From contig OZ024764.1 of assembly GCA_964016885.1 (NCBI GenBank), positions 16,802,001 through 16,866,000 of the forward strand: 64,000 nucleotides of DNA, in the 5' to 3' direction. A program made the translations under genes and the position numbers. This stretch comes from Eledone cirrhosa. Its lineage: Eukaryota. The notes beneath the pieces were generated by a model, which was not told the origin of the DNA, searched no databases, and saw only the letters and a program-made list of their open reading frames with translations. This document shows positions 2,245 to 54,424 of this stretch, piece by piece (position 1 is the first letter of the stretch; each line of letters begins with the position of its first letter).

Positions 2245-2596
2245 CTGTAATAGAGAAGAGAGAGAAGATTTGTTGTTGGTGATGATGATGATGGTGAGTG
2301 TGGCAGAGAGAGACTGAGAGAGATATAGGCAGAGAGAGAGAGAGAGAGTTATCAAACAGAGAGTGTATGTGTGAGAGAGTGAGTGTAGGAGAAAGAGATG
2401 AGAGAGAGAAGAAAACAGTGTATTTGAGAGGAAGAGAAGGAAAGGAAAAGGAGAGAGATAGAAAGAAAAGGAAAGGAAAGGAAAAGGAGAGAGATAGAAA
2501 GAGAAGAAAAGAAAAAGAAAAGAGAAGGAAAGGAAAAGGAGAGAGATAGAAAGAGAAAAAAAGAGAGGAAGAAAAGAAAGTATATGATTCCTTCAC

Positions 2597-2764
2597 CTGG
2601 GGCCACCATTATCTCATGTTTCTTTGACCTGATCCTTAAAAAGGTCAAGTCATTCGAGGGGTCAATGTCCCTGACTGTGCTCCTGGCTTTCGAGGTCAAC
2701 TCCAGAATGAGGCCAGCGTACTGGACTGTCGTAGAATTATCCATGGTGGTTCGGATAGGAATAC
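2597..2764 (-). CDS. DYNLRB: Dynein light chain roadblock, coding exon 3
   Basis: (G)[55 protein letters not shown](D). 168 bp, AG/GT flanked. Confidence 0.96.
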
Positions 2765-2861
2765 CTGGTAAGTAGGGAACAATGATTAGATTGGTGATGA
2801 TGTGGTAGTGGTGGTGTAGTGGTAGTGTAGTGGTGTGGTAGTGGTGGTGATGCTTTTGGTA

Positions 2862-4518
2862 GTTATGGTAGTGAAAGGGTTAATGACATAGACAGTGTCT
2901 TTCATTAGAAATATGGTAATGAAAGGGTTAATGACATAGACAGTGTCTTTCATTAGAAATATGGTAATGGAAGGGTTAATGACATAAACAGTGTCTTTCA
3001 TTAGAAATATGGTAATGAAAGGTTTAATGACATAGGCAGTGTCTTTCACTAGAAATATGGTAATGAAAGGGTTAATGACATAGACAGTGTCTTTCATTAG
3101 AAATATGGTAATGAAAGGGTTAATGACATAGACAGTGTCTTTCATTAGAAATATGGTAATGAAAGGGTTAAAGACATAGACAGTGTCTTTCATTAGAAAT
3201 ATGGTAATGAAAGGGTTAATGACATAGACAGTGTCTTTCATTAGAAATATGGTAATGAAAGTGTTAAAGACATAGACAGTGTCTTTCATTAGAAATATGG
3301 TAATGAAAGGGTTAATGACATAGACAGTGTCTTTCATTAGAAATATGGTAATGAAAGGGTTAATGACATAGACAGTGTCTTTCATTAGAAATATGGTAAT
3401 GAAAGGGTTAAAGACATAGACAGTGTCTTTCATTAGAAATATGGTAATGAAAGGGTTAATGACATAGACAGTGTCTTTCATTAGAAATATGGTAATGAAA
3501 GTGTTAAAGACATAGACAGTGTCTTTCATTAGAAATATGGTAATGAAAGGGTTAATGACATAGACAGTGTCTTTCATTAGAAATATGGTAATGAAAGGGG
3601 TAATGACATAGACAGTGTCTTTCATTAGAAATATGGTAATGAAAGGGTTAATGACATAGACAGTGTCTTTCATTAGAAATATGGTAATGAAAGGGTTAAA
3701 GACATAGACAGTGTCTTTCATTAGAAATATGGTAGTGAAAGGGTTAATGACATAGACAGTGTCTTTCATTAGAAATATGGTAATGAAAGGGTTAATGACA
3801 TAGACAGTGTCTTTCATTAGAAATATGGTAATGAAAGGGTTAAAGACATAGACAGTGTCTTTCATTAGAAATATGGTAATGAAAGGGTTAATGACATAGA
3901 CAGTGTCTTTCATTAGAAATATGGTAATGAAAGGTTTAATGACATAGGCAGTGTCTTTCATTAGAAATATGGTAATGAAAGTGTTAAAGACATAGACAGT
4001 GTCTTTCATTAGAAATATGGTAATGAAAGGGTTAATGACATAGACAGTGTCTTTCATTAGAAATATGGTAATGAAAGGTTTAATGACATAGGCAGTGTCT
4101 TTCATTAGAAATATGGTAATGAAAGGTTTAATGACATAGGCAGTGTCTTTCATTAGAAATATGGTAATGAAAGGGTTAATGACATAGGCAGTGTCTTTCA
4201 TTAGAAATATGGTAATGAAAGGGTTAATGACATAGACAGTGTCTTTCATTAGAAATATGGTAATGAAAGGGTTAATGACATAGACAGTGTCTTTCATTAG
4301 AAATATGGTAATGAAAGGTTTAATGACATAGACAGTGTCTTTCATTAGAAATATGGTAATGAAAGGTTTAATGACATAGGCAGTGTCTTTCACTAGAAAT
4401 ATGGTAGTGAAAGGTTTAATGACATAGGCAGTGTCTTTCATTAGAAATATGGTAATGAAAGGGGTAATGACATAGACAGTGTCTTTCACTAGAAATATGG
4501 TAGTGAAAGGGTTAAAGA
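2862..4518. repeat. 48-bp minisatellite (about 34 copies) in DYNLRB intron 2
   Basis: Unit (minus strand) TTAACCCTTTCATTACCATATTTCTAATGAAAGACACTGTCTATGTCA. The same unit occurs at 34622-34810 (about 4 copies) and as a monomer at about 15506. Confidence 0.95.
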
Positions 4519-4533
4519 GATAACGACCCCTAC

Positions 4534-4609
4534 CTTCCTGATTTATGACAATGATCCCTTGGACTCCCTTGTGGCTTTGAATCCTTTTTAGTGTCTCTTC
4601 CACTTCCGA
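4534..4609 (-). CDS. DYNLRB: Dynein light chain roadblock, coding exon 2
   Basis: SEVEETLKRIQSHKGVQGIIVINQE(G). 76 bp, gacag acceptor, G|gtagg donor. Confidence 0.95.
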
Positions 4610-6589
4610 CTGTCAACAACAACGTAGGCAGACAAATACAAAAGAAAATAGAAAAAAAAGACAAACATTAAAATTTCATTAACATCATCATCATCAACAT
4701 TTAACATGCAGTTTCCCTGCTGGTTAGGGCTGGACAGGTCTACATAAGCCAAGTCAGTACTGAAGCAGGGCCACTGACCTTTCAGACAAGCTGAAAGGTC
4801 TTTTGTCACAAACTGAAGGGTTCTCTCTTGTTTTGCAAGCTTTCTATGGCTGGATGCCCTTCCTAACACATACACATACATACATATATATACATACACA
4901 TACATACATATATACATACATATACATACACATACATACATATATATACACATACATACATACATATATACATACATATATATACACATACATACATATA
5001 TATACATACGTCATCATCATTTAACATCATCTTACCCTGCTAGCAAGGGTTGGACAGGTCTACACAGACCAAGTCAGTACAGAAGCAAGGCTACTGACCT
5101 ACAGGACAGGCTAAGGGGTCTGTATTCCACTTACGTACAGTCATATTGAGTACAGAGAAGTTTTCGTGTCTTGTGATAAAGACTGAAGGGTCCTCCCAAC
5201 TCCATGTTTGGTAGGAAGGGCACCCAGCTGTAGAAACCAAGCCAAAATCTGCCCTGGGTGAGCAAAACAAGGGTCAATCTGTCCAACCCATGAATGATGG
5301 ACATTAATTGTCGAGGTTAGGGTTAGCCTTTCATCCATACGGGGTCGATAAAATAAAGTACCAGTAATGTACTGGGTAAGTGCTGGCCTTGTGCCAAAAG
5401 TAGAAACAATTAATTGTCGAGGTTGATGATATATTTATGTGTGTATATATATGAAGTATGTATGTATATGCATATTACATATATGTCATATGTATATGCA
5501 TGCAAATATATATATATATGTGTATATCATTATCATGATATGTGCATGTATCATCATCATCATCATCATCATTATTTTACGTCCGCTCTTCCCTGCTCAC
5601 AAGGGTGGGACGGGTCTTATTCAGCATCTCTTCACTTGTCACGGTCCCTCGTCATCTCCACCGTGAGTTTCAACGATCTGAGGTCTGTTCTCACCACCTC
5701 CGCCCATATATGTACATATATACATATATATATATGTATGTATATTATACTGGTACCACAAAACATCCAGCCCACACTGTAAAGTGATTGTGTAGGTGTC
5801 ATAACAAAAAGCACCCAGTCCACACTGTAAAGTGGACGTGTAAAAGATACAGCAAAAATAACACCCAGCACACCCTGTCAATGTGGTTGGCGTTAGGACA
5901 GGAATCCAGCCATAGAAAACCAGCCAGAAACTCTCCTATATGAGCGAGACCCGGTCACCCGACCTAACTCGCCCCTAAATGGTACAAACCCGTCTAACCC
6001 ATGCTAGCCTGGAAGATAGACGTTAATCGATGATGACGATGATGATGATAATGACGATTCTTTTTGCAAGGACTTGAAAAATAAACCCCATTTGGTCATT
6101 CCATGAGAGTATCTTGATCAGCCTACCCTCGAATAAACAGGTTCTGTATATATATGTACAAAATACTAGTAGTTTCTCAATTGATATATCCTATTATATA
6201 GAACGTTTAAACCTGTAAAATTCATGCTCTGAGCTTTTTTTTTTTATTGAGAAACATAATCAATATATATTTTATATGTATTGATTAATCTAAATAGAGT
6301 ATGTGTGCGTGTGTATATGTATACATTTATGTATATCTATATATATGTGTGTGTGCACAGAACAATAACATAGAAATCAGGTGTAGATAGATAGTAAGTT
6401 TGGTGTATATATATATATATATATATATACACCAAACTTACCTAAATACAAAGTAAAAACCTACTACAGTCAGTAGGCATCTCTATCAAAACACCCCCCC
6501 GTCCCACCACCTCCACCCCATCCACACCGCCCCTTTCAATGTACAGTTATGTTGGTGCCACAACATCCAGGCCGAAACAAATGTGGTCG

Positions 6590-9095: not shown

Positions 9096-9098
9096 CAT
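9096..9098 (-). CDS. DYNLRB: Dynein light chain roadblock, ATG-only first coding exon
   Basis: aaaacATG|gtatgg. 3+76+168+44=291 nt gives 96 aa plus stop, the same exon layout as vertebrate DYNLRB. Promoter-like sequence lies just upstream. Confidence 0.7.
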
Positions 9099-26724: not shown

Positions 26725-27578
26725 TGGTGGCTGCCAACTCGTTTTCGAGTACGGCCACTACTTTATATCCATGTAGGAGAACCCCTACCGATGCGCTGAA
26801 CAAGTGTGACTTTTTAGTCCAGCCAGCGACTTGAAAACTCTGGTACAAACACTACACCTGTGACAATTATTGACACAGTGCTTTGCCTTTGGTACCATGT
26901 GACGACAAGTGCAGAGAGATCTCCAGATACAAAGCAATGCCTGTGCCGTGAAGCTTTTATAGTGAGCAAAGGCACTGCACTAAGCCAGTCCCACTCTCTT
27001 AACCAAGATGATATTTACCAAACAGAAGAACAAGTCAACATCATTGGATACCATCAGGGTTGCAGGTGTTATATCAGAGTTTTCCTTCTAGAATTCTACC
27101 TTGACAAAGGCTAAGGGTTCATCTCTCCCGGTGATTTTGGATGGCCATTGACTCTTAAGAGCTCCTCTGCCCTTTGACAGGCTTTGTTTTTAGTGCTGCA
27201 GGATGTCCAAAGACACCCTCCTCACCAAGAAACCTTGGTGCATATATATATACATATATATATACATACATATATATATACATACATATATATATATACA
27301 TATATATATACATACATATATATATATACATACATATATATATACATACATATATACATACATATATATATACATACATATACATATACATACATATATA
27401 TATACATACATATATATATACATACATATATATATACATACATACATATATACATACATATATACATACATATATATATACATATATATATACATACATA
27501 TATATATACATATATATATACATACATATATATATACATATATATATACATACATATATATATACATATATATATACA

Positions 27579-27612
<34 letters not shown>

Positions 27613-28755
27613 CATACATACATACATACATATACATATACATACATATACATATACATACATATACACATACATACATACACATATACATACATATATA
27701 TATACATACATATACATATACATACATATATACATACATACATACACACATACATACATATACATATACATACATATATACATATATACACACATATATA
27801 CATATATATATATATACATATATATATACATATATATATATATACATACATATATATATACATATATATATACATACACATATACATACATATATATATA
27901 CATATATATATACATATATATATACATATATATATACATATATATATACATATATATATACATACATATATATATACATACATATATATATACATACATA
28001 CATATATATATACATATATATATACATACATATATATATACATATACATATACATATATATATACATACACATATACATACACATATACATACATACATA
28101 CATACATACATACATACATGGTGGCTGCCAACTCGTTTTCGAGTACGGCCACTACTTTACATCCATGTAGGATAACCCCCACCGAAGCGCTGAACGAGTG
28201 TGACTTTTTAGTCCAGCCAGCGACTTGAAACCTCTGGTACAAACACTACACCTGTGACAATCATTGACACATAGTGCTAGGCCCATGATAGGACAATTAT
28301 TGACACATAGTGCTGGGCCCATGTGAGGACAAGTGCAGAGAGATCTCCAGATATAAAGCAATGCCTGTGCCGTGAAGCTTTTATAGTGAGCAAAGGCACT
28401 GCACAAAGCCAGTCCCACTCTCTTAACCAAGATGCTATTTACCAAAAAGAAGAACAAGTCAACATCATTGGATACCATCAGGGTTGCAGGTGTTATATCA
28501 GAGTTTTCCTTCTCCTAGAATTCTGCCTTGACTAAGGCTAAAGGGGTCATCTCTCCCGGTGATTTTGGATGGCCATTGACTCTTAAGAGCTCCTTTGCCC
28601 TTTGACAGGTTTTGTTTTTAGTCCTGCAGGATGTCCAAAGTCACCCTCCTCACCAAGAAACCTTGGTGGGGTTGCCAGTTTAGTCGCCAACGACCCGACC
28701 ATGAGACAGGTTGTACTGGGATACATGTTACCAGTAGCACCAACTGGTGACCTGA
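26725..28755. repeat. Local duplication of a 520-630 bp degenerate repeat (26725-27240 and 28117-28755) separated by a microsatellite
   Basis: CATGGTGGCTGCCAACTCGTTTTCGAGTACGG...CCAAGAAACCTTGGTG occurs twice, about 1.39 kb apart. Confidence 0.8.
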
Positions 28756-36376: not shown

Positions 36377-36829
36377 GGGGGAGAGAAAGAAAGAAAGAGG
36401 GTGAAGCATCACCGCCGCCACCACCACCACAAAACATATAGCCATCGCCACCACCTCCACAAAACATATAGTCATCGCCACCATCCTCACCATATGTTAT
36501 CGATATCTCCACCACCACCACCACCACCACCACCATCACCAAATAATACAGCCATCGCCTTCACCCGCCACCACCACCTCTACAAAACCATATAGCTATC
36601 CCCGCCACCACCATAAAAATTGAGTCATCACCGCCGTCGCTGCCACCATTGAAAGTGTACGTCATCGCCATATTCCCCGTCACCGCCGCCACCACCATTA
36701 TCAACACCATAATAAGACATAATAACGAAAGGGTATTTTTTTGTTTTGTTTAGTCAATGCGTAAATAAAATGTTAAAAAATAAGACTACCACTAAATATA
36801 TTTATAAAACTGCAAAAAAAAAAACATCG

Positions 36830-37270
36830 GCCATCATCGGACACACGAACACAAAATATGAGCGAAGCAGCCGACATAACAATGGCGGCCGACCTTCCTT
36901 CCTCGCTCTGTCATTCTAAATATATATTATATATTTATATTGTCTTCCATATGTTCTTTTTGATTTTCAATAATTTGTTATTTTTTAACTAGGGGGAGAT
37001 AAAAGACATTATCGTTGTCTTTTATATACGTGTGTGTGTATGTGCGTGTGTGTATGTGTGTATGTATGTATGTATGTATGTATGTGTGTGTGTGTATACC
37101 TTTATGCTTCCATTCCTTGTTCAGCTTTACTTCTTGTATTCCAATAACGCCAATGATTTATTGGCTGTTCTGCTGGCCGACTGCAATATATGCACCAATC
37201 AGAATTGAGCCGGAAGTGGACCATTTTTGAAAAATATTATGCTTTGTATATTTATTTTAGCTTTTAACGG
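36830..37270. promoter_or_regulatory. Putative bidirectional promoter between TDG and SMIM4/BRAWNIN
   Basis: YY1-like AATGGCGGC (36881), four CCAAT/ATTGG boxes (37141-37200), ETS site CCGGAAGTG (37210-37218), possible GC donor ACG|gcaagt (37269/37270). Confidence 0.5.
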
Positions 37271-37274
37271 CAAG

Positions 37275-37780
37275 TATATCACCAGCCCCACCATCACCTC
37301 TAATAACACCACCACCAATAACAACACCAACATCACCAGTACTACAACCACCACCATCACCCGCAATAACACTAGCATCATCACCAGCACCAAACACCAT
37401 CACCACCACCAACACCACCATCACCACCACCACTACCACAACCATCACCACTACCACCATCACTACCACCAGCACCAATACCATCGCCACCCCCATCATC
37501 ACCATCACTACCACCACCATCACTACCACCACCATCGCTACCACCACCATCACTACCACCACCATCACTACCAGCACCACCACCATCACCAACGCCACCA
37601 CCACAACCATCACCACCACCACCACCACCACTACCACCACCACCACCACCACCAACATTACCACCAGCACCAATACCATCGCCACCCCCATCACCACCAT
37701 CACTACCACCACCATCACTACCACCACCACCACCATCACCACCACCATCACCACCACCACCACCACCAACACCAACACTA
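37275..37780. repeat. (CAC/CAT)n trinucleotide tract
   Basis: Direct reading. Confidence 0.9.
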
Positions 37781-38494: not shown

Positions 38495-41400
38495 ATAAAA
38501 TAAAATAAAATAAAATAAAATAAAATAAAATAAAATAAAATAAAATAAAATAAAATAAAATAAAATAAAATAAAATAAAATAAAATAAAATAAAATAAAA
38601 TAAAATAAAATAAAATAAAATAAAATAAAATAAAATAAAATAAAATAAAATAAAATAAAATAAAATAAAATACAATAAATTTAATTAATTAATTAATTAA
38701 TTAATTAATTAATTAATTAATTAAAATTAAATTAAATTAATTAATTAAATTAATTAATTAAATTAAATTTAAATTAATTAATTAATTTATTAATTAAAAT
38801 AAAATAAAATAAAATAAAATAAAATAAAATAAAATACAATAAATTTAATTAATTAATTAATTAATTAATTAAAATTAAATTAAATTAATTAATTAAATTA
38901 ATTAATTAATTAATTAAATTAATTAATTAATTAAATTAAATTTAAATTTATTAATTAAAATAAAATAAAATAAAATAAAATAAAATAAAATAAAATAAAT
39001 TTAATTAATTAATTAATTAATTAATTTAATTTAATTTAATTTAATTTATTTTAATTTAATTTAATTTAATTTAATTTAATTTAATTTAATTTAATTTAAT
39101 TTAAAAAACGAAACGAAACCAGGGTACCTAAAACAAGAAACGAAACGAAACCGGGGAACCTAAAAAACCAAACGAAACGAAACCGGGGTACCTAAAAACG
39201 AAACGGAACGAAACCGAGGAACCTAAAAAAACAAACGAAACGAAACCGGGGAACCTAAAAAACCGAAACGAGACGAAACCGGGGAACCTAAAAAACTAAA
39301 CGAAACGAAACGGATTTCGTTACGCTTCGTTCAACCTACGCGCATGCGCAGCACGGTACAATCTTCGTGCGACGGCTATCCAACCTTGGCGCATGCGCAT
39401 TGCGCAGTGGGCTATTTCCGGGTGTTTCCGGGTATTTCCGGGTATTTCCGGTTAATACCGGATATTAAATAATTAAAATGATTTAAAATAATTACTTAAT
39501 TAATTAATAAAATAAAATAAAAAAAAATAAATTTAATTAATTAATTAATTTATTTATTTATTTATTTATTAAATAATTAATTAATTAATTATTTAAATTA
39601 AAAAACTTAAATTAATTAATTAATTAATTAATTAATTAATTAATAAAATAAAATAAAATAAAATAAAATACATTTAATTAATTAATTAATTAATTAATTA
39701 AATTAAACCAAACGAAACGAAACCGGGGAACCTAAAAAACCGAAACGAGACGAAACCGTGGAACCTAAAAAAACCAAACGAAACGAAATTAGTTTAGTTT
39801 CGCTTCGTTCAACCTACGCGCATGCGCAGTACGGTCCAACCTTCGTGACGGCTTTCCAAACTTAGCGCATGCGCAGTGGGCTATTTCCGAATGTTTCCGA
39901 GTATTTCCGGTTATTTCCGGTTATTTCCGGGTATTAAATTAAGTAAAATAAAATTAAAATAAGTTAAATTAAATTAAATTAAATTAAATTAAATTAAAAT
40001 AAATTAAAATAATTAATTAATTAATTAATTAATTAATTAATTAATAAAATAAGATGAAATGAAATAAAATAAAATAAAATAAAATAAAATAAAATAAATT
40101 TAATTAATTAATTAATTAATTAATTAATTGATTAATTATTTAATTTAATTTAATTTAATTTATTTTATTTTATTTTATTTTATTTTAATTTATTTAAATT
40201 AATTTAATTAATTAATTAATCAATTAATTAATTAATTATTTAATTTAATTTAATTTATTTTATTTAATTTTATTTTAATTTATTTTAATTAATTTAATTA
40301 ATTAATTAACTAATTTAAATTTAATTAAATTAATTAATTAATTAAATTAATTAAATAAATTAATTAATTAAATTAATTAATTAAATTAATTATTTAAATT
40401 AATTAAATATATTAAATTTAAATTAATTAATTAATTAAATTAATTAAAATAAAATAAAATAAAATAAAATAAAATAAAATAAAATAAAATAAAATAAAAT
40501 AAAATAAAATAAAATAAAATAAAATAAAATAAAATAAAATAAAATAAAATAAAATAAAATAAAATAAAATAAAATAAAATAAAATAAAATAAAATAAAAT
40601 AAAATAAAATAAAATAAAATAAAATACAATAAATTTAATTAATTAATTAATTAATTAATTAATTAATTAAATTAAATTTAAATTAATTAATTAATTTATT
40701 AATTAAAATAAAATAAAATAAAATAAAATAAAATAAAATAAAATAAAATACAATAAATTTAATTAATTAATTAATTAATTAATTAAAATTAAATTAAATT
40801 AATTAATTAATTAATTAAATTAATTAATTAATTAAATTAAATTTAAATTTATTAATTAAAATAAAATAAAATAAAATAAAATAAAATAAAATAAATTTAA
40901 TTAATTTAATTTAATTTAATTTAATTTATTTTAATTTAATTTAATTTAATTTAATTTAATTTAATTTAAAAAACGAAACGAAACCAGGGTACCTAAAACA
41001 AGAAACGAAACGAAACCGGGGAACCTAAAAAACCAAACGAAACGAAACCGGGGTACCTAAAAACGAAACGGAACGAAACCGAGGAACCTAAAAAAACAAA
41101 CGAAACGAAACCGGGGAACCTAAAAAACCGAAACGAGACGAAACCGGGGAACCTAAAAAACTAAACGAAACGAAACGGATTTCGTTACGCTTCGTTCAAC
41201 CTACGCGCATGCGCAGCACGGTACAATCTTCGTGCGACGGCTATCCAACCTTGGCGCATGCGCATTGCGCAGTGGGCTATTTCCGGGTGTTTCCGGGTAT
41301 TTCCGGGTATTTCCGGTTAATACCGGATATTAAATAATTAAAATGATTTAAAATAATTACTTAATTAATTAATAAAATAAAATAAAAAAAAATAAATTTA

Positions 41401-44400
41401 ATTAATTAATTTATTTATTTATTTATTTATTTATTAAATAATTAATTAATTAATTATTTAAATTAAAAAACTTAAATTAATTAATTAATTAATTAATTAA
41501 TTAATTAATAAAATAAAATAAAATAAAATAAAATACATTTAATTAATTAATTAATTAATTAATTAAATTAAACCAAACGAAACGAAACCGGGGAACCTAA
41601 AAAACCGAAACGAGACGAAACCGTGGAACCTAAAAAAACCAAACGAAACGAAATTAGTTTAGTTTCGCTTCGTTCAACCTACGCGCATGCGCAGTACGGT
41701 CCAACCTTCGTGACGGCTTTCCAAACTTAGCGCATGCGCAGTGGGCTATTTCCGAATGTTTCCGAGTATTTCCGGTTATTTCCGGTTATTTCCGGGTATT
41801 AAATTAAGTAAAATAAAATTAAAATAAGTTAAATTAAATTAAATTAAATTAAATTAAATTAAAATAAATTAAAATAATTAATTAATTAATTAATTAATTA
41901 ATTAATTAATTAATAAAATAAGATGAAATGAAATAAAATAAAATAAAATAAAATAAAATAAAATAAATTTAATTAATTAATTAATTAATTAATTAATTGA
42001 TTAATTATTTAATTTAATTTAATTTAATTTATTTTATTTTATTTTATTTTATTTTAATTTATTTAAATTAATTTAATTAATTAATTAATCAATTAATTAA
42101 TTAATTATTTAATTTAATTTAATTTATTTTATTTAATTTTATTTTAATTTATTTTAATTAATTTAATTAATTAATTAACTAATTTAAATTTAATTAAATT
42201 AATTAATTAATTAAATTAATTAAATAAATTAATTAATTAAATTAATTAATTAAATTAATTATTTAAATTAATTAAATATATTAAATTTAAATTAATTAAT
42301 TAATTAAATTAATTAAAATAAAATAAAATAAAATAAAACAAAATAAAATAAATAAAATAAAATAATTAATTAATTAATTAATTATTTTATTTTATTTATT
42401 TTATTTTATTTTATTTTGTTTTATTTTAATTAATTTAATTAATTAATTAATTAATTAATTTAAATTTAATTTAATTAATTAATTAAATCAATTAATTAAA
42501 TTAATTAATTAAATTAATTAATTAAATTAATTAATTAAATTAATTAATTAAATTAAATTTTAATTAATTAATTAATTAATTAAATTAATTAAAATAAAAT
42601 AAATTAAAATAATATAAAATAAAATAAATTAAATAAAATAATTAATTAATAAAATAAAATAAAATAAAATAAAATAAAATAAAATAAATTTAATTATTTA
42701 ATTAATTAATTTAATTAATTTAATTTAATTTAATTTATTTTAATTTAATTTAATTTAATTAATTTCATTAATTAATTAATTTAAATTAAATTAATTAATT
42801 AATTTAATTAATTAATTAAATTAAATTTAAATTAATTAATTAATTTATTAATTAAATAAAATAAAATAAAATAAAATAAAATAAAATAAATTTAATTAAT
42901 TAATTTAATTTAATTTAAAAAACGAAACGAAACCGGGGTACCTAAAACACGAAACGAAACGAAACCGGGGAACCCAAAAAACCAAACGAAACGAAACCGG
43001 GGTACCTAAAAACGAAACGGAACGAAACCGAGGAACCTAAAAAACCAAACGAAACGAAACCGGGGAACCTAAAAAACCGAAACGAGACGAAACCGGGGAA
43101 CCTAAAAAACTAAACGAAACGAAACGGGTTTCGTTACGCTTCGTTCAACTTACGCGCATGCGCAGCACGGTACAATCTTCGTGCGATGGGTATCCAACCT
43201 TGGCGCATGCGCAGTGCGCAGTGGGCTATTTCCGGGTGTTTCCGGGTATTTCATGGTATTTCCGGTTAATACCGGATATTAAATAATTAAAATGATTTAA
43301 AATAATTACTTAATTAATTAATAAAATAAAATAAAAAAAAATAAATTTAATTAATTAATTAATTTATTTATTTATTTATTTATTAAATAATTAATTAATT
43401 AATTATTTAAATTAAAAAACTTAAATTAATTAATTAATTAATTAATTAATTAATTAATAAAATAAAATAAAATAAAATAAAATACATTTAATTAATTAAT
43501 TAATTAATTAATTAAATTAAACCAAACGAAACGAAACCGGGGAACCTAAAAAACCGAAACGAGACGAAACCGTGGAACCTAAAAAAACCAAACGAAACGA
43601 AATTAGTTTAGTTTCGCTTCGTTCAACCTACGCGCATGCGCAGTACGGTCCAACCTTCGTGACGGCTTTCCAAACTTAGCGCATGCGCAGTGGGCTATTT
43701 CCGAATGTTTCCGAGTATTTCCGGTTATTTCCGGTTATTTCCGGGTATTAAATTAAGTAAAATAAAATTAAAATAAGTTAAATTAAATTAAATTAAATTA
43801 AATTAAATTAAAATAAATTAAAATAATTAATTAATTAATTAATTAATTAATTAATTAATTAATAAAATAAGATGAAATGAAATAAAATAAAATAAAATAA
43901 AATAAAATAAAATAAATTTAATTAATTAATTAATTAATTAATTAATTGATTAATTATTTAATTTAATTTAATTTAATTTATTTTATTTTATTTTATTTTA
44001 ATTTATTTAAATTAATTTAATTAATTAATTAATCAATTAATTAATTAATTATTTAATTTAATTTAATTTATTTTATTTAATTTTATTTTAATTTATTTTA
44101 ATTAATTTAATTAATTAATTAACTAATTTAAATTTAATTAATTTAATTAATTAATTAAATTAATTAAATAAATTAATTAATTAAATTAATTAATTAAATT
44201 AATTATTTAAATTAATTAAATATATTAAATTTAAATTAATTAATTAATTAAATTAATTAAAATAAAATAAAATAAAATAAAACAAAATAAAATAAATAAA
44301 ATAAAATAATTAATTAATTAATTAATTATTTTATTTTATTTATTTTATTTTATTTTATTTTGTTTTATTTTAATTAATTTAATTAATTAATTAATTAATT

Positions 44401-45612
44401 AATTTAAATTTAATTTAATTAATTAATTAAATCAATTAATTAAATTAATTAATTAAATTAATTAATTAAATTAATTAATTAAATTAATTAATTAAATTAA
44501 TTAATTAATTAAATTAATTAATTAAATTAATTAATTAAATTAAATTTTAATTAATTAATTAATTAATTAAATTAATTAAAATAAAATAAATTAAAATAAA
44601 ATAAAATAAAATAAATTAAATAAAATAATTAATTAATAAAATAAAATAAAATAAAATAAAATAAAATAAAATAAATTTAATTATTTAATTAATTAATTTA
44701 ATTAATTTAATTTAATTTAATTTATTTTAATTTAATTTAATTTAATTAATTTCATTAATTAATTAATTTAAATTAAATTAAATTAATTAATTAATTTAAT
44801 TAATTAATTAAATTAAATTTAAATTAATTAATTAATTTATTAATTAAATAAAATAAAATAAAATAAAATAAAATAAAATAAATTTAATTAATTAATTTAA
44901 TTTAATTTAAAAAACGAAACGAAACCGGGGTACCTAAAACACGAAACGAAACGAAACCGGGGAACCCAAAAAACCAAACGAAACGAAACCGGGGTACCTA
45001 AAAACGAAACGGAACGAAACCGAGGAACCTAAAAAACCAAACGAAACGAAACCGGGGAACCTAAAAAACCGAAACGAGACGAAACCGGGGAACCTAAAAA
45101 ACTAAACGAAACGAAACGGGTTTCGTAATGTTTCGTTCAACTTACGCGCATGCGCAGCACGGTACAATCTTCGTGCGATGGGTATCCAACCTTGGCGCAT
45201 GCGCAGTGCGCAGTGGGCTATTTCCGGGTGTTTCCGGGTATTTCCGGGTATTTCCGGTTAATACCGGATATTAAATTAAATTAAATTAAATTAAATTAAA
45301 TTATATTAAATTAAATTAAATTAAATTAAAATGATTTAAAATAATTACTTAATTAATTAATTAATAAAATAAAATAAAATAAAATAAATTTAATTAATTA
45401 ATTAATTTATTTATTTATTTATTTATTAAATAATTAATTAATTAATTATTTAAATTAAAAAACTTTAATTAATTGATTAATTAATTAATTAATTAATAAA
45501 ATAAAATAAAATAAAATAAAATAAAATAAAATAAAATAAAATAAAATAAAATAAAATAAAATAAAATAAAGTAAAATAAAATAAAATAAAATAAATTTAA
45601 TTAATTAATTAA
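38495..45612. repeat. AT-rich higher-order macrosatellite (about 1.9-kb A-B unit, 3.5 copies) with GC-containing cores
   Basis: Core A at about 39103, 40969, 42917 and 44909; core B at about 39707, 41571 and 43520. Spacers are (AAAAT)n, (TTAA)n and (AAATT)n. Confidence 0.9.
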
Positions 45613-47401: not shown

Positions 47402-47405
<4 letters not shown>

Positions 47406-47627
47406 TGTTTATGTTCATAGACGGAATAAAAGCGCCAGCCAACGTCTCGAGGCCCAAATTGTGATCATACCTCCAGAAAACAAGCCATCAAAATAGTGAC
47501 CTTTCTTCAGGTGTTTATACGGGAAAGGTCACTATTTTGGTGCCTCTTGTATTCTAGAGGTATGGTTAAATTTGGACCTTCAGACCTTGGGTAGCAGCGT
47601 TGATCCGTGTATGAACATAGGTAAATA
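47402..47627 (+). other. Long imperfect RNA hairpin (about 105-bp stem, 13-nt loop)
   Basis: Manual pairing gives a continuous 22-bp apical stem 47486-47507/47521-47542 and pairing out to 47402/47627, with about 9 G:U pairs versus 3 C:A mismatches on the + strand. Confidence 0.8.
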
Positions 47628-48736
47628 TAATATTTCTGCTCTTTTCCCGATTGAGCACTGTTTTCCTTTTTCCATTTCACATTTATGGATATTGCTACAT
47701 ACACAAATTATATATATATGTCCTTGAGCAAGACACTTTATTTCACATTGCTCCAGTTTACTCAGCTGTAGAAATGAGATGAGAGGGACTGGGGTCCCTA
47801 TCATTCCACTGCAAAGTGGACGTGGAGGTGCCACGGCAAAAAAGCACCCAGCACTCACTCACTGTAAATGAGGTTGGTGTTAGGAAGGGCATCCAGCTGT
47901 AGAAATCAAGCCAGAATCAGTTCCCGTCCCACCCTTGCAAGCAGGGAATAAGCGGACGTAAAATGATGATGATGATGATGATATATATATAGGAAAATTT
48001 CTGGACTAGAAATAGCCGTCGAAACGGCGTGAGCTCTGCCGTCGGGGTCCTGAACCTTTTCCCCTATTACCCACTCTACTACTTAAAGTAGAGCATATAT
48101 ATATATATATATATATATGCACATTCACACAGTCTCGATTTAGCTGTTGAAATGGAAAGAGACCCTTACATTAAGTTACTACCTTACCAGCCCGACCAAA
48201 ACCATCTCTGGTCCTATGAAATAATTGTTTCTACTTTAGGCACAAGACCAACAATTACCTAGTGCATTACTGGTACTTTATTTTATCGACCCCGTGAGGA
48301 TGAAAGGCAAAGTCAACCTCGGCGGGATTTGAACTCAGATCATAAAGGGACGTAACTATGCTGGAAAGCATCTATGAAATAATGCCACCCATTTTAAAAG
48401 TTTCCACTTTAAATTAAACTCTTCCAGCGTAACATTCAGTTACTATTTATTTATTTATTTTGAGAACAATACCTTAACATAAGTATGAGCACCTGGTTAT
48501 GGCCGTATTGAATAGTAAGGTAAGAGAATTCTGGCCAGATACGGCCATTTTATGTGATAAAGGGTTAAAGGCTGTCTTAGTGTTACTTCCAATTAGATAT
48601 GTATAGAATGAATCAAAGGTGTATAGTGAGTTAGAAACTCAAAATAGTCTCTTACAATTAAATAGCTCAAAGAAAGAGGTTTATGTAAGCCATGTAATAT
48701 AATTGAATATAAAAGAAAGATAAACACATATATAAT

Positions 48737-49807: not shown

Positions 49808-49848
49808 TTATATGGTATAGAATGTATATATTTTTCCTCTATTTCAGA

Positions 49849-50002
49849 ATGTTTCATCAGAGTAAGACATTCGAACGCATCGTAAGAAGCTGGCCTGGAA
49901 AGAAAACATTTGGAACCTACCGATTCATGCCACTGTTTTTTATCCTCGGAGCTGCTCTGGAATTTTCTATGATTAACTGGCACGTTGGGGAAGTGAACTT
50001 CT
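49849..50002 (+). CDS. SMIM4: SMIM4/UQCC5 (Sloth1) coding exon 1
   Basis: MFHQSKTFERIVRSWPGKKTFGTYRFMPLFFILGAALEFSMINWHVGEVNF(Y) matches the SMIM4 signature PGKxxFGxYRFLPxFFxLG..E..MI...VG...FY. Acceptor AG at 49846-49847, gtaagt donor. Confidence 0.92.
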
Positions 50003-50528
50003 GTAAGTGTTGTTAATTAGTTCATTACTAAAATAGTAATTTAATGAAAGGTTCTTATATAAAATTATGTTGGAAGATTCTAATTTAAATAAGAACCCTT
50101 TAAAATGGGTGGTTTTATTTCATAGAACCAGAGCTGGTTTTGGCGGGGTTGATAACTAAAGGGTTATATGTATAAATATATATATATATATATATATATA
50201 AAAGACGTAAAATAAAATTTTTTAAAAAATTTTTTTAAAGAATTAACTTACTTAAATTTTCACTCCAACTAATTAGTTTCTGCAATGGGATAAAGACAGT
50301 TACGTAATGAACTGTTGAGAATTTCATTGCGTCATCAGGGAGGTCTATTCTCAGCCAAGTCTCCAGGCAATACGCGGACACTGGGGACTCATATAAAAAT
50401 AATAATAATTCGGTAAATGGAACAGCTATCGAGGACTGGATTCCAGGTACTGAAAATGACATAACCTGTGTATTTGCTGGCATTAGCGTACATCTGTGCG
50501 CTTATGTTAGTAGATATATTAAATTATC

Positions 50529-50559
<31 letters not shown>

Positions 50560-50592
50560 AAGTATATGTTTTCACCTTTTTACCAATTGCAG

Positions 50593-50672
50593 ACAAAGTG
50601 TATAAGAAAAGGCGAGTTACTGAAGAGCTGCAGCGACTGACATTGGAGGAATCTACGAGTGAAGAAACTTGA
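50593..50672 (+). CDS. SMIM4: SMIM4/UQCC5 (Sloth1) coding exon 2 ((Y)KVYKKRRVTEELQRLTLEESTSEET*)
   Basis: ttgcag acceptor, phase 1, completes the FYxVYxxR motif. 77 aa total. Confidence 0.88.
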
Positions 50673-50859
50673 TTAACTCACTGATATAGCTTATTGAGTA
50701 CCTCCAATTGAGTATATTAACACACACTTGAATATATATATATATACACATATATATACATATGTATAGACCTACTATTCATATTGATATATATATTTAT
50801 ATACTCACAATACACACATAGACACACACACACAAAGGCACCACACAGTAACATACGCC

Positions 50860-51004
50860 AATATATATATATATATATATAAACACACAAATAGACAGCA
50901 ATATATATATATACACACACAAATAGACAGCAATATATATATATATACACACACACAAAGGCACCACACATACAATAAATACACACACACACATTTAGAC
51001 AGCA

Positions 51005-51035
<31 letters not shown>

Positions 51036-51202
51036 TTTAGACAGCAATATATATATATATATACACACACACACATTTAGACAGCAATATATATATATAT
51101 ACACACACACACATTTAGACAGCAATATATATATATATACACACACACACATTTAGACAGCAATATATATATATATACACACACACACACATTTAGACAG
51201 CA

Positions 51203-51233
<31 letters not shown>

Positions 51234-51360
51234 TTTAGACAGCAATATATATATATATACACACACACACATTTAGACAGCAATATATATATATATACAC
51301 ACACACACATTTAGACAGCAATATATATATATATACACACACACACACATTTAGACAGCA

Positions 51361-51399
<39 letters not shown>

Positions 51400-51410
51400 T
51401 TTAGACAGCA

Positions 51411-51441
<31 letters not shown>

Positions 51442-51452
51442 TTTAGACAGCA

Positions 51453-51485
<33 letters not shown>

Positions 51486-51650
51486 TTTAGACAGCAATAT
51501 ATATATATATACACACACACATTTAGACAGCAATATATATATATATACACACACACACACATTTAGACAGCAATATATATATATATACACACACACACAC
51601 ATTTAGACAGCAATATATATATATATATATACACACACATTTAGACAGCA

Positions 51651-51680
<30 letters not shown>
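50860..51680. repeat. Compound minisatellite ATTTAGACAGCA(AT)n(AC)n in the SMIM4-BRAWNIN spacer
   Basis: About 20 copies of a constant core with variable AT/AC run lengths. Confidence 0.9.
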
Positions 51681-51681
<1 letters not shown>

Positions 51682-51707
51682 AGATTTGTTTGTAAAAGAA
51701 GCAGACA

Positions 51708-51815
51708 ATGCCTGCCGGAGTATCTTGGGGCAGCTACATCAAACATGCTGTGACAGCCATGTTTTTCATGATGGCCGGGTCACAGACGGTCCACTTGATT
51801 TACAGACCCCTAGAT
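51708..51815 (+). CDS. UQCC6: BRAWNIN/C12orf73/UQCC6 (Sloth2) coding exon 1
   Basis: MPAGVSWGSYIKHAVTAMFFMMAGSQTVHLIYRPLD matches MPAGVxxxxY......MxAGxxxVHxxYRP. GAT|gtaagt donor. Confidence 0.92.
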
Positions 51816-52009
51816 GTAAGTATTGCATTGATTCTGTTTCTTCACATATATTCAATCATCATCATCATCATCATCAACATCGTCATCATCATTACGTCCA
51901 TCTTTCCATGCTTGCATGTGTTGGGCAGGTCCTTTCCAGCACAGCATCTCTCCACTTTCCAGCTTCCTTCTTCATCTCCTCTGTCCAGCTTCATCAATTT
52001 GAGATCATA

Positions 52010-52195
52010 CCTAGTTTTCCAAGAGCCCACCAGATGATGGAGCGAGGGACTCTGTCAAAGGCTTTCTCCAGGTCTACAAAAGCTAAGTAGAGGGGTTTAC
52101 TTTTAGCTAGGTACTTCTCTTGTAGTTGTCGTACAAGGAAAAGAGCGTCTGCGGTACTTTTACCTGACACAAACCCAAACTGCATTTCATCTTGG
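52010..52195 (-). mobile_element. RTE-clade LINE RT fragment in the BRAWNIN intron
   Basis: EMQFGFVSGKSTADALFLVRQLQEKYLAKSKPLYLAFVDLEKAFDRVPR. Confidence 0.85.
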
Positions 52196-52422
52196 GCAAG
52201 GTCGGCTTGTATCACCTCACCTTTCCATGCTAGCACGGGTGAGACGGGTTGCCCTCTTTGAGGCAAGTTGGGGTCAAGTGACCATGTCTTGCTCATACAG
52301 GACTGTTTCTAGCTAGGTTTCTATGATTGGTTGTCCTTCCTAATGCCAACCATATTTATAGTGTGGACTGGGTGCTTCTTGTCGTGACACCTACACGACC
52401 ACATTACAGTGTGGGCTGGGTG

Positions 52423-52454
<32 letters not shown>

Positions 52455-52502
52455 TAGTGAGGTACCCAGCTTCACCTGGATAAACAGATAAGAGAAGACT
52501 GG

Positions 52503-52534
<32 letters not shown>

Positions 52535-53058
52535 CAAATAATTGTTTCTACTTTTGGCACAAGGCCAGCAATTACCCAGTGCATTACTGGTACTTTATTT
52601 TATCGACCCCGTAAGGATGAAAGGCAAAGTCAACCTCGGCGGGATTTGAACTCAGACCGTAAAGGGACGTAACTAGTTAAGATGGGATTAATTCACCATA
52701 ATTGTTTATTGCATTATATATATTTCTGTTACATGGTTATTCATGTGACTTCATCAGGTGCTTACGCAATCATAGATGCAGTTATGCAATCATTGGGATA
52801 TGCTGGTGGCCATGTATAGCTATTCTGAAGTGATGTAGGTCACCATACAGCACTACTGGTTAGGGGCGGGGCTGAGTTTTGTATGTTTGCTTTACCATAA
52901 TGTGGAATTGCCTTTGTTTGAACTGCAGAGGAGTGATGGGAATAAAGTGTGGTGTTGTGTGGTGTTGTGTGGCCTAATGGTTGGATGTGCTTACTATCAT
53001 AATGTTGTAGGTTTGATTCCTGGACTGTTTCATTTTTTACTTTTTTCTTTTTTCTAAG

Positions 53059-53169
53059 GACCTTGATGATTTGATCAAGACCGAAAAGGGTAAAGTTGAC
53101 AGCAGCAGCAGCAGCAGCAGCAGTAACAACAACAATTCAGTCCCAACAGATTCACAAGGGACAGACTGA
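53059..53169 (+). CDS. UQCC6: BRAWNIN/UQCC6 coding exon 2 (DLDDLIKTEKGKVDSSSSSSSSNNNNSVPTDSQGTD*)
   Basis: Strong polypyrimidine tract + taag acceptor, phase 0, 72 aa total. Possible AATAAA at 53775-53780. Confidence 0.75.
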   Translation, partial: DLDDLIKTEKGKVDSSSSSSSSNNNNSVPTDSQGTD

Positions 53170-54424
53170 TTGTTACTATGTTTCAAAGTGCTGCCCTCTA
53201 TACCAGCGGTAAGAGCTTAACATGACTAGAGGGAGGTAACTCTATATGAAGTGTTTTCTGGCATGGAGACCAGAAATGGCTGAAATCAGTGTAATGCTTG
53301 ACCCCCAACAGAGATCCACCACCACCACCATATTGACCGGCCTGTAAGCTGCCTGGCTTTCAACTCTACTCTACCTCACTGTGATATGTTCACACTACTG
53401 AACCAAGGAAGACCTCAGATCAGGGTTCTGTTCTCTTCCCATCCTTCTTCAACACATGATTAAACCATCTCAGAGTTTCATATAGGAATTGGAAAAAGTA
53501 TCGCAACAATGGCGGTGCCCCAGTATGGCCTCAGCCTGTCAGTTGGAACACGTAATAGAGGGAGGCCACACCGTATTCACTGGCTTTGGACTGTAACTCA
53601 AGGGACATATCTCAATATGACTGTGATAGATGATAAAAGACGTGAACTAAACTGGAACCCTTTCTGATGGCGTAGTAGGGGTGCCGTCATGATATATGAC
53701 CGAGCCAAACCCCTAAAACCAGTAAAGAAAAGTGGAGAGTTCTTTTCAGTTGTGGTCTGTCATCGAAACAAGAAAATAAAGTTAAAGTGGTAGAGAAACT
53801 ACTCCTCCATCCTTGGTTACAGATGCCACTGACATCATCATCACTTTACGTCTGCTTTTCCCTGCTTGCAAGGGTGGGACGGGAACTGATTCTGGCTTGA
53901 TTTCTACAGCTGGATGCCCTTCCTAACACCAACCTCATTTACAGTGAGTGCTGGGTGTTTTTTTGCCGTGGCACCTCCATGACCACTTTGCAGTGGAATG
54001 ATAGGGACCCCAGTCCCTATCATCTCATTTCTACAGCTGAGTAAACTGGAGTAATGTGATAGCCACACACAAAAAAACTTTGCTGAAATATGCAAGGGAG
54101 GTAATCACACTAGCCAAAATGATGAGGTATATGGAGCAGCTTGCCATATATTCACCCCACATCACTTCCAATCCTGCTCCTGATGTATATAGATCAATAT
54201 ATCACTCCAAAGATGGATGGAATTTAGTTAACAACCCTATAATTGACCCTGTAAATCTGAAAATTAGAAAAGCCACCGGATTAATTTAAGGGACTGCATT
54301 AGGGGGGCTAATGATGTCAATTAACCCTTTCATTGCTGTAATTTGAATAAAATATCCTACTTGTACGTTTCAGTTGATATTGAAAATAATGAAAGTTTTG
54401 AAAGAATTTAATAATATAACCATC

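What the first reader, a model, noticed from the sequence alone, without database searches (positions are those of the whole stretch)
49849..53169. Tandem Sloth1 (SMIM4/UQCC5) - Sloth2 (BRAWNIN/UQCC6) microprotein pair, probable bicistronic gene
Seen: two spliced small ORFs (77 and 72 aa) on the same strand, only 1035 nt apart, with no CpG-rich or promoter-like sequence between them. Established: both are complex III assembly microproteins, encoded bicistronically in Drosophila (sloth1/sloth2) but on separate chromosomes in human. Inference: a molluscan, intron-containing version of this eukaryotic 'operon', easily missed by annotation pipelines.
Basis: partly seen in the sequence, partly recalled or inferred. 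Interest (0 to 1): 0.75.

Follow-up and report, generated by a model that had tools for sequence, protein, structure and literature searches.

The report
Two-in-one mitochondrial microprotein gene pair
Two tiny spliced genes, whose fly and human counterparts help build a mitochondrial respiratory complex, sit head to tail here and likely share one messenger RNA, an ancient layout already published for flies, lampreys and sea squirts, unusual here only in a gap swollen to about 1 kb by simple repeats.

Summary
Observation confirmed exactly: ORF1 is 77 aa (SMIM4/UQCC5, PF15114), ORF2 72 aa (BRAWNIN/UQCC6, PF14990), spacer 1035 nt; each has one match in this genome (19, 20). Contigs of one public run join both introns precisely (18, 22) but break at the 820-nt minisatellite in the spacer, so one shared mRNA is likely (about 0.72), not shown; an AATAAA lies in the spacer. 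The layout is ancestral, not a molluscan speciality: 50 of 68 metagenome loci carry BRAWNIN downstream, 25 as intron-free two-ORF contigs, 14 of these with the copepod spliced leader; both intron positions recur elsewhere (31-37). PMC9681215 already reports linkage in fly, lamprey, sea squirt and choanoflagellate, and this scan noted the pair before in another genome (e1-9512540). Differences: the longest spacer seen (median of relatives 40 nt, maximum 640) and an ORF1 start with -3 A, so the fly's weak-Kozak rule is not met. Side lead: a tiny out-of-frame uORF overlaps the SMIM4 start in 12 of 14 related mRNAs (mostly copepods) and may route ribosomes to ORF2; the window's own 5' exon was not located. 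New member of a known kind.

The parts
49848..50002 (+). ORF1 (SMIM4/UQCC5/Sloth1) first coding exon; acceptor at 49847|49848, AUG at 49849
   Evidence: PF15114, E 6e-25; contig, 0 other letters
50003..50592 (+). ORF1 intron, phase 1 after the conserved NF, 590 nt, GT-AG
   Evidence: same position in related genomic loci
50593..50672 (+). ORF1 second coding exon with stop codon
50673..51707 (+). intercistronic spacer, 1035 nt, one weak-context AUG (50762), 13 in-frame stops, one AATAAA (50974)
   Evidence: contig cover shown for 50673-50719 and 51690-51707 only
50859..51679 (.). 38-bp (TA)n(CA)n-type minisatellite, 20.8 copies, accounts for most of the spacer
51708..51815 (+). ORF2 (BRAWNIN/UQCC6/Sloth2) first coding exon, AUG with -3 A
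   Evidence: (PF14990, E 8e-15)
51816..53058 (+). ORF2 intron, phase 0 after codon 36, 1243 nt, holds a reverse-transcriptase fragment on the - strand
   Evidence: same position in 9 of 25 genomic loci
53059..53169 (+). ORF2 second coding exon with stop codon
53170..54351 (+). inferred 3' UTR; the 948-nt contig would reach about 53848 if it follows the genome; AATAAA at 53775 and 54346, the latter with a T/G-rich downstream stretch
   Evidence: inference
48471..48519 (+). unproven candidate for the upstream 5' exon end: nearest of 5 top-scoring donors (of 152) that fit the two letters seen at the junction; lies in a dispersed repeat
   Evidence: not shown by any read
37150..37230 (+). unproven candidate promoter: two CCAAT boxes and the window's only ETS-type motif (motifs recalled), in single-copy DNA
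   Evidence: no data link it to this gene

Best explanation
This is the single-copy SMIM4/UQCC5 plus BRAWNIN/UQCC6 pair in its ancestral head-to-tail order, both ORFs spliced, likely made as one mRNA from an upstream promoter and likely translated into two separate membrane microproteins predicted to help assemble respiratory complex III. Shown: identities, order, both splices, RNA-like cover running past the ORF1 stop and up to the ORF2 start without use of the nearby splice signals. Inferred: the 1035-nt spacer is exonic and grew by minisatellite expansion; ORF2 is reached by scanning ribosomes, either ones that bypass ORF1's AUG or ones that resume scanning after ORF1 or a short uORF, because only three weak-context AUGs (two in-frame Met of ORF1, one in the spacer) lie before ORF2's -3 A AUG. 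A fused protein is excluded by 13 in-frame stops. Function and co-ordinated amounts of the two proteins are taken from fly and human work (PMC9681215), not tested here.
For: (identity, single match each); contig joins ORF1 exons and runs 47 nt past the stop, through both GT candidates at 50698 and 50712; contig begins at least 18 nt before ORF2's AUG, through the AG candidates at 51697-51704, and continues into exon 2; its 32 further letters fall where the tool skips repeats. If contiguous, the two contigs end about 30 letters inside the simple repeat on each side, where short-word assemblies break (recalled); 50 of 68 loci carry ORF2 downstream on the same strand, none on the other strand; of the 18 without, 16 run into the ORF1 intron with no second exon found by my pattern, 1 ends inside ORF1, 1 (L011) is a real miss; 25 contigs hold both ORFs without introns, and 14 of 25 carry the published CopepodSL once, before ORF1 only; all three intervening AUGs have a pyrimidine at -3; the spacer AATAAA has no GT/TG dinucleotide 15-60 nt downstream (7 behind the AATAAA at 54346); spacer donors match 2-3 of 7 consensus positions against 4-5 for the real ones; fly bicistron and leaky-scanning reporter data.
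Against: No contig bridges the spacer; all RNA-like evidence is two contigs from one run of one study whose kind is not on record, and contigs cannot show starts, ends or level. The spacer is longer than any of 33 distinct related loci (median 40, maximum 640) and holds a canonical AATAAA. ORF1's AUG has -3 A by the contig, unlike the weak fly start. AUG scarcity in the spacer is weak evidence: 3 of 61 and 4 of 61 equal tiles of the window have at most 1 AUG, the non-repeat part gives 1 against 4.3 expected (P 0.07), and the minus strand has 23, so one repeat orientation explains most of it. Out-of-frame AUGs are not depleted in ORF1 of 14 relatives (5 against 5.8 expected, P 0.45), while ORF2 is (5 against 13.2), the reverse of what leaky scanning predicts. 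Long spacers of L055, L057, L059 hold 13, 4 and 2 AUGs. L011 is a spliced SMIM4 contig with 1197 nt downstream and no ORF2.
Confidence: 0.72

Rival explanations
1. The ancestral bicistron has split in place: SMIM4 mRNA is polyadenylated behind the AATAAA at 50974 and BRAWNIN starts from its own promoter in or beside the (TA)n(CA)n repeat; or both short and read-through forms coexist.
For: AATAAA 300 nt behind the ORF1 stop; no bridging contig; longest spacer seen; strong ORF1 start; L011 shows SMIM4 without ORF2 elsewhere; jawed vertebrates have split the pair.
Against: No GT/TG-rich element behind the AATAAA; only simple repeat upstream of ORF2, 1 CpG, none of the promoter motifs scanned; linkage with co-transcription in relatives.
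Confidence: 0.17
2. One transcript, but most of the repeat is removed as an intron (donor near 50764 or 50848, acceptor at an AG in the last repeat units), so that the mature spacer is about 250 nt or less; or a shared 5' exon splices alternatively to ORF1 or ORF2.
For: Each repeat unit holds AG acceptors; relatives have short spacers; the masked letters at both contig ends were not seen.
Against: Remaining donors match only 2-3 of 7 consensus positions; the contigs pass the nearest donors and acceptors unspliced; no pyrimidine tract before ORF2.
Confidence: 0.09
3. One fused SMIM4-BRAWNIN protein by read-through (the two ORFs are in the same frame across the unspliced spacer).
For: Same frame; three database proteins carry both Pfam families.
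Against: 13 in-frame stops in the spacer; the three database proteins read through the ORF1 intron, which marks them as gene calls on unspliced DNA.
Confidence: 0.01

Closest known systems
Drosophila sloth1-sloth2 (CG32736-CG42308) bicistronic gene, PMC9681215
   Same: Same two families, order and strand; ORF2 AUG with -3 A; an intron in the 5' leader (fly: seen in supplement 1; here: acceptor 1 nt before the AUG)
   Different: Spacer 1035 nt against 5 nt; ORFs in the same frame; ORF1 AUG has -3 A against -3 C in the fly; single transcript not proven here
Linked orthologues in lamprey, sea squirt and choanoflagellate (PMC9681215 Fig. 1C, supplement 1)
   Same: Linked pair; the lamprey text shows a GT at the same place in ORF1 (read by eye)
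   Different: Their spacers were cut off in the supplement text I could see; no mollusc is mentioned in the main text
Human SMIM4/UQCC5 and C12orf73/BRAWNIN/UQCC6
   Same: Same Pfam families; complex III assembly role per PMC9681215 discussion
   Different: Unlinked in human (chr 3 and 12)
uORF-dependent reinitiation on cellular mRNAs (review PMC10275272, passages)
   Same: Short upstream ORF spatially separated from a downstream ORF; overlapping out-of-frame uORF represses the ORF it overlaps
   Different: Here both main ORFs are conserved proteins; the overlapping uORF was seen in relatives, not shown for this window

Membership tests
SMIM4/UQCC5 (PF15114) | profile match above the curated cut-off | tested here: met
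   87.3 bits against 27; invariant PG..YRF.P and EFSMINW columns
SMIM4/UQCC5 (PF15114) | single hydrophobic membrane segment | tested here: inconclusive
   best 19-residue Kyte-Doolittle mean 1.49 at 26-44; no topology predictor run
BRAWNIN/UQCC6 (PF14990) | profile match above the curated cut-off | tested here: met
   54.7 bits against 27; 67-75% identity to 8 relatives
SMIM4 and BRAWNIN | mitochondrial import and complex III assembly activity | not testable with these tools
   taken from PMC9681215 sections 5 and 11
sloth1-sloth2 bicistronic gene | SMIM4 upstream of BRAWNIN, same strand, both intact | tested here: met
sloth1-sloth2 bicistronic gene | one mature mRNA holds both ORFs | tested here: inconclusive
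   contigs reach into the spacer from both sides but none bridges it
sloth1-sloth2 bicistronic gene | no internal transcription start or 3' end | not testable with these tools
   only contigs were available; AATAAA at 50974 unresolved
fly-type leaky-scanning control | weak ORF1 start context, strong ORF2 context | tested here: not met
   ORF2 -3 A but ORF1 also -3 A; in 15 related contigs ORF1 has a purine at -3 in 12
fly-type leaky-scanning control | very short spacer | tested here: not met
   1035 nt; relatives 1-640 nt
tandem paralogues (proposal of PMC9681215) | detectable similarity between the two families | tested here: not met
   profile-profile probability 0.2%, 3 columns, (shallow profiles, so weak)
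trans-spliced operon (nematode type) | a leader added in front of the downstream ORF | not tested
   not examined for the window; in 14 of 14 leader-bearing relatives the leader stands once, before ORF1

The most novel reading that the evidence does not exclude
The ancient SMIM4-BRAWNIN bicistron balances its two products not by a weak first start codon, as proposed for the fly, but by a conserved tiny out-of-frame uORF that overlaps the SMIM4 AUG and shunts a share of ribosomes past it to reinitiate on BRAWNIN; in this genome the same shunt works across a 1-kb, almost AUG-free microsatellite spacer (the candidate 5' exon ending at 48519 would supply a 12-codon uORF with G at -3 and +4 that stops 17 nt into ORF1).
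Probability: 0.2. Interest if true: 0.6.

Novelty: new member of a known kind. Interest (0 to 1): 0.3.

Why it matters
It adds a lophotrochozoan-type genome, and many further animal loci, to a published case of an operon-like animal gene kept since before animals arose, and shows that the linkage survives a twenty-five-fold longer, repeat-filled spacer. That makes the locus a natural test of how the second protein is translated. Annotation pipelines can miss or fuse the pair (three fused gene calls). The pair itself is not a surprise to a specialist; the overlapping uORF in relatives is the part worth an experiment.

Tried and rejected
The pooled out-of-frame AUG count was spoiled by a mis-set start in L058 and was redone without it; the window's own test (0 against 0.83 expected, P 0.30) used the same slightly tainted codon table and is not significant. 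Search for the 5' exon: 47405-47680 and 48451-48569 are dispersed repeats; donors near the candidate promoter at 37269 and 37274 do not fit the two letters seen at the junction; unresolved. Natural fusion proteins rejected. No solved structure of the SMIM4 family (best E 0.54). Paralogy of the two families not detected. No complex prediction or fold was run: binding is known from the fly paper and a pass would not change the reading. The literature search returned general cephalopod papers only.

Full report
Observation. Splicing the window at GT-AG sites gives ORF1 = 49849-50002 + 50593-50672 (77 aa) and ORF2 = 51708-51815 + 53059-53169 (72 aa), 1035 nt apart. The first exons match Pfam UPF0640 (87.3 bits) and DUF4516 (54.7 bits), cut-off 27 each; the second exons match nothing. 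Named relatives are SMIM4/UQCC5/sloth1 (40 hits) and brawnin (11 hits). Each exon has one match in the 3.0-Gb own genome.

Anatomy of the spacer. It is 26% GC with one CpG, one AUG (50762, -3 C), one AATAAA (50974) and 13 stops in the common frame; 50859-51679 is a 38-bp minisatellite of 20.8 copies. ORF1's AUG lies 1 nt behind an acceptor, so the gene begins upstream of the finding.

Transcript evidence. The run search listed 12 runs, none on record as RNA; I laid 7 of them. X12 holds a 372-nt contig (depth 23.9) on 49846-50002 and 50593-50719 with no other letter, 47 unlaid letters upstream and 41 downstream, and a 948-nt contig (depth 30.4) on 51690-51816 whose loose end is the start of exon 2, with 32 unlaid letters upstream in a stretch the tool skips as repeat. 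So both predicted introns are removed, the ORF1 contig passes two spacer GT sites, and the ORF2 contig passes three AG sites before the AUG. If the unseen letters follow the genome, the contigs end at 50760 and begin at 51658, about one assembly word inside the repeat, which is what read-through would give, but also what two transcripts ending and starting in the repeat would give. This is one run of one study, and depth cannot rank genes.

Relatives. A scan of metagenome contigs with alignment A1 gave 68 loci from 347 matched stretches. A BRAWNIN profile finds ORF2 downstream on the same strand in 50 of 68, on the other strand in 0. Of the 18 others, 16 run into the ORF1 intron with no second exon found by my pattern (three of them with 4.8-8.0 kb held, so unresolved), L050 ends inside ORF1, and L011 is spliced with 1197 nt downstream and no ORF2. 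25 of the 50 hold both ORFs without introns (two of these classed by hand), 17 distinct at 90%; 14 of 25 carry a leader that matches CopepodSL in Table 1 of PMC4664967, once and before ORF1, so these are processed two-ORF mRNAs. For spacers I used the 25 plus 20 genomic loci with the second exon picked by hand (five near-duplicates left out): 33 distinct loci, median 40 nt, 29 at most 135 nt, maximum 640. The ORF1 intron after NF is flagged in 18 of the 50 and the ORF2 intron after codon 36 is seen in 9 of 25 genomic loci: both are shared positions.

Mechanism. The fly model is leaky scanning past a weak sloth1 start into sloth2 5 nt downstream (PMC9681215 section 5). Here ORF1 has -3 A, ORF2 -3 A, and the three AUGs between them a pyrimidine at -3. 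I infer that ORF2 is reached by scanning, after bypass of ORF1's AUG or after reinitiation; reinitiation rises with intercistronic distance in some systems (PMC10275272 passages). Support from AUG counts is modest. Spacers of 17 intron-free relatives hold 2 AUG in 570 nt against 100 in 5043 nt of their 3' UTRs, but ORF1 is not depleted of out-of-frame AUG in 14 relatives (5 against 5.8) whereas ORF2 is (5 against 13.2), three long spacers are AUG-rich, and the window's low count is matched by 3 of 61 and 4 of 61 tiles and is mostly one repeat orientation. The ORF1 stop lies 1143 nt before the ORF2 exon junction; where junction-dependent decay operates, the mRNA would need ORF2 translation to survive (inference from general knowledge).

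Side lead. In 14 distinct intron-free contigs with a complete 5' end (L028, L058 left out as incomplete, L067 merged with L066), 13 have an out-of-frame AUG within 35 nt of the ORF1 start and in 12 the small ORF ends on or inside ORF1; windows of their own 3' UTRs predict 7.2 of 14 for an AUG in any frame. Eight of the 14 carry the copepod leader, so the cases are related and not independent; L067 and three of the four loci L066, L068-L070 show the overlap too, and I read a 15-codon overlapping uORF by eye in the lamprey text of supplement 1, but none overlapping in the fly, sea squirt or choanoflagellate text. Purine at -3 of ORF1 in 12 of 15 relatives says the weak-start rule is not general. 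For the window the leader is unknown. Of 152 upstream donors that fit the junction letters, five score 6 of 7; the nearest, 48519, would give a 12-codon uORF stopping 17 nt into ORF1, but it lies in a dispersed repeat and no read shows it.

What is known. PMC9681215 (seen: passages, sections 5 and 11, supplement list, supplement 1 with each sequence cut at about 400 letters; supplement 4 unreadable) reports linkage in fly, lamprey, sea squirt and choanoflagellate and the split in jawed vertebrates; 'mollus' and 'octopus' occur 0 times in its main text. Searches listed no paper on this pair in a mollusc, and 54 none on its uORF; I saw only listings there, and subscription papers and preprint supplements are outside the library. 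PMC4664967 and PMC10275272 were seen as passages. The taxon was not tested; the best named ORF2 hit is an annelid, and the octopus-like look of the repeats is recalled.

Verdict. A real, correctly read gene pair; one mRNA 0.72, split or mixed 0.17, spliced spacer 0.09, fusion 0.01. New member of a known kind, interest 0.3; the uORF shunt across a microsatellite spacer has probability about 0.2 and would merit 0.6.

Noticed in passing
L017, L022-L024, L030-L034, L038, L039, L042, L048, L051, L066-L069, 4-43 nt upstream of the SMIM4 AUG: Out-of-frame AUG opening a tiny ORF that stops on or just inside SMIM4, often sharing letters with its start codon.
   Followed up: partly
L017, L018, L023-L025, L027, L031, L033, L034, L038, L040, L042, L048, L051, first 35 nt: Copepod spliced leader on contigs that hold both ORFs: trans-splicing animals keep the pair on one mRNA instead of resolving it.
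   Followed up: yes
window 2355-4610, - strand: Two exons of a Roadblock/LC7 gene (Pfam E 4e-12, dynein light chain-like by recollection); first exon possibly near 9098.
   Followed up: partly
window 36800-37290: Single-copy promoter-like stretch with CCAAT boxes and the window's only ETS-type motif; target gene unknown.
   Followed up: partly
window 38500-45600: Four units of about 1.9 kb, each an AT-only tract plus a CpG-rich block with several GCGCATGCGC palindromes (14 in all) and short CCGG repeats; possibly a satellite.
   Followed up: no
window 51997-52308, - strand: Reverse-transcriptase fragment (PF00078, E 8e-7) inside the ORF2 intron.
   Followed up: no
L011: Spliced SMIM4 contig with 1197 nt downstream and no BRAWNIN: a possible independent split of the pair.
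   Followed up: partly
L055, L057, L059, L043: Long spacers (640, 356, 223, 202 nt) with 13, 4, 2 and 1 AUG; may be spliced or separately transcribed.
   Followed up: no
P0053, P0058, P0063: Database proteins with both Pfam families that read through the ORF1 intron: fused gene calls, not natural fusions.
   Followed up: yes
window 26788-27200 and 28120-28640: Two near-identical stretches with a weak C2H2-like match on the - strand, below the Pfam cut-off; probably transposon remains.
   Followed up: no
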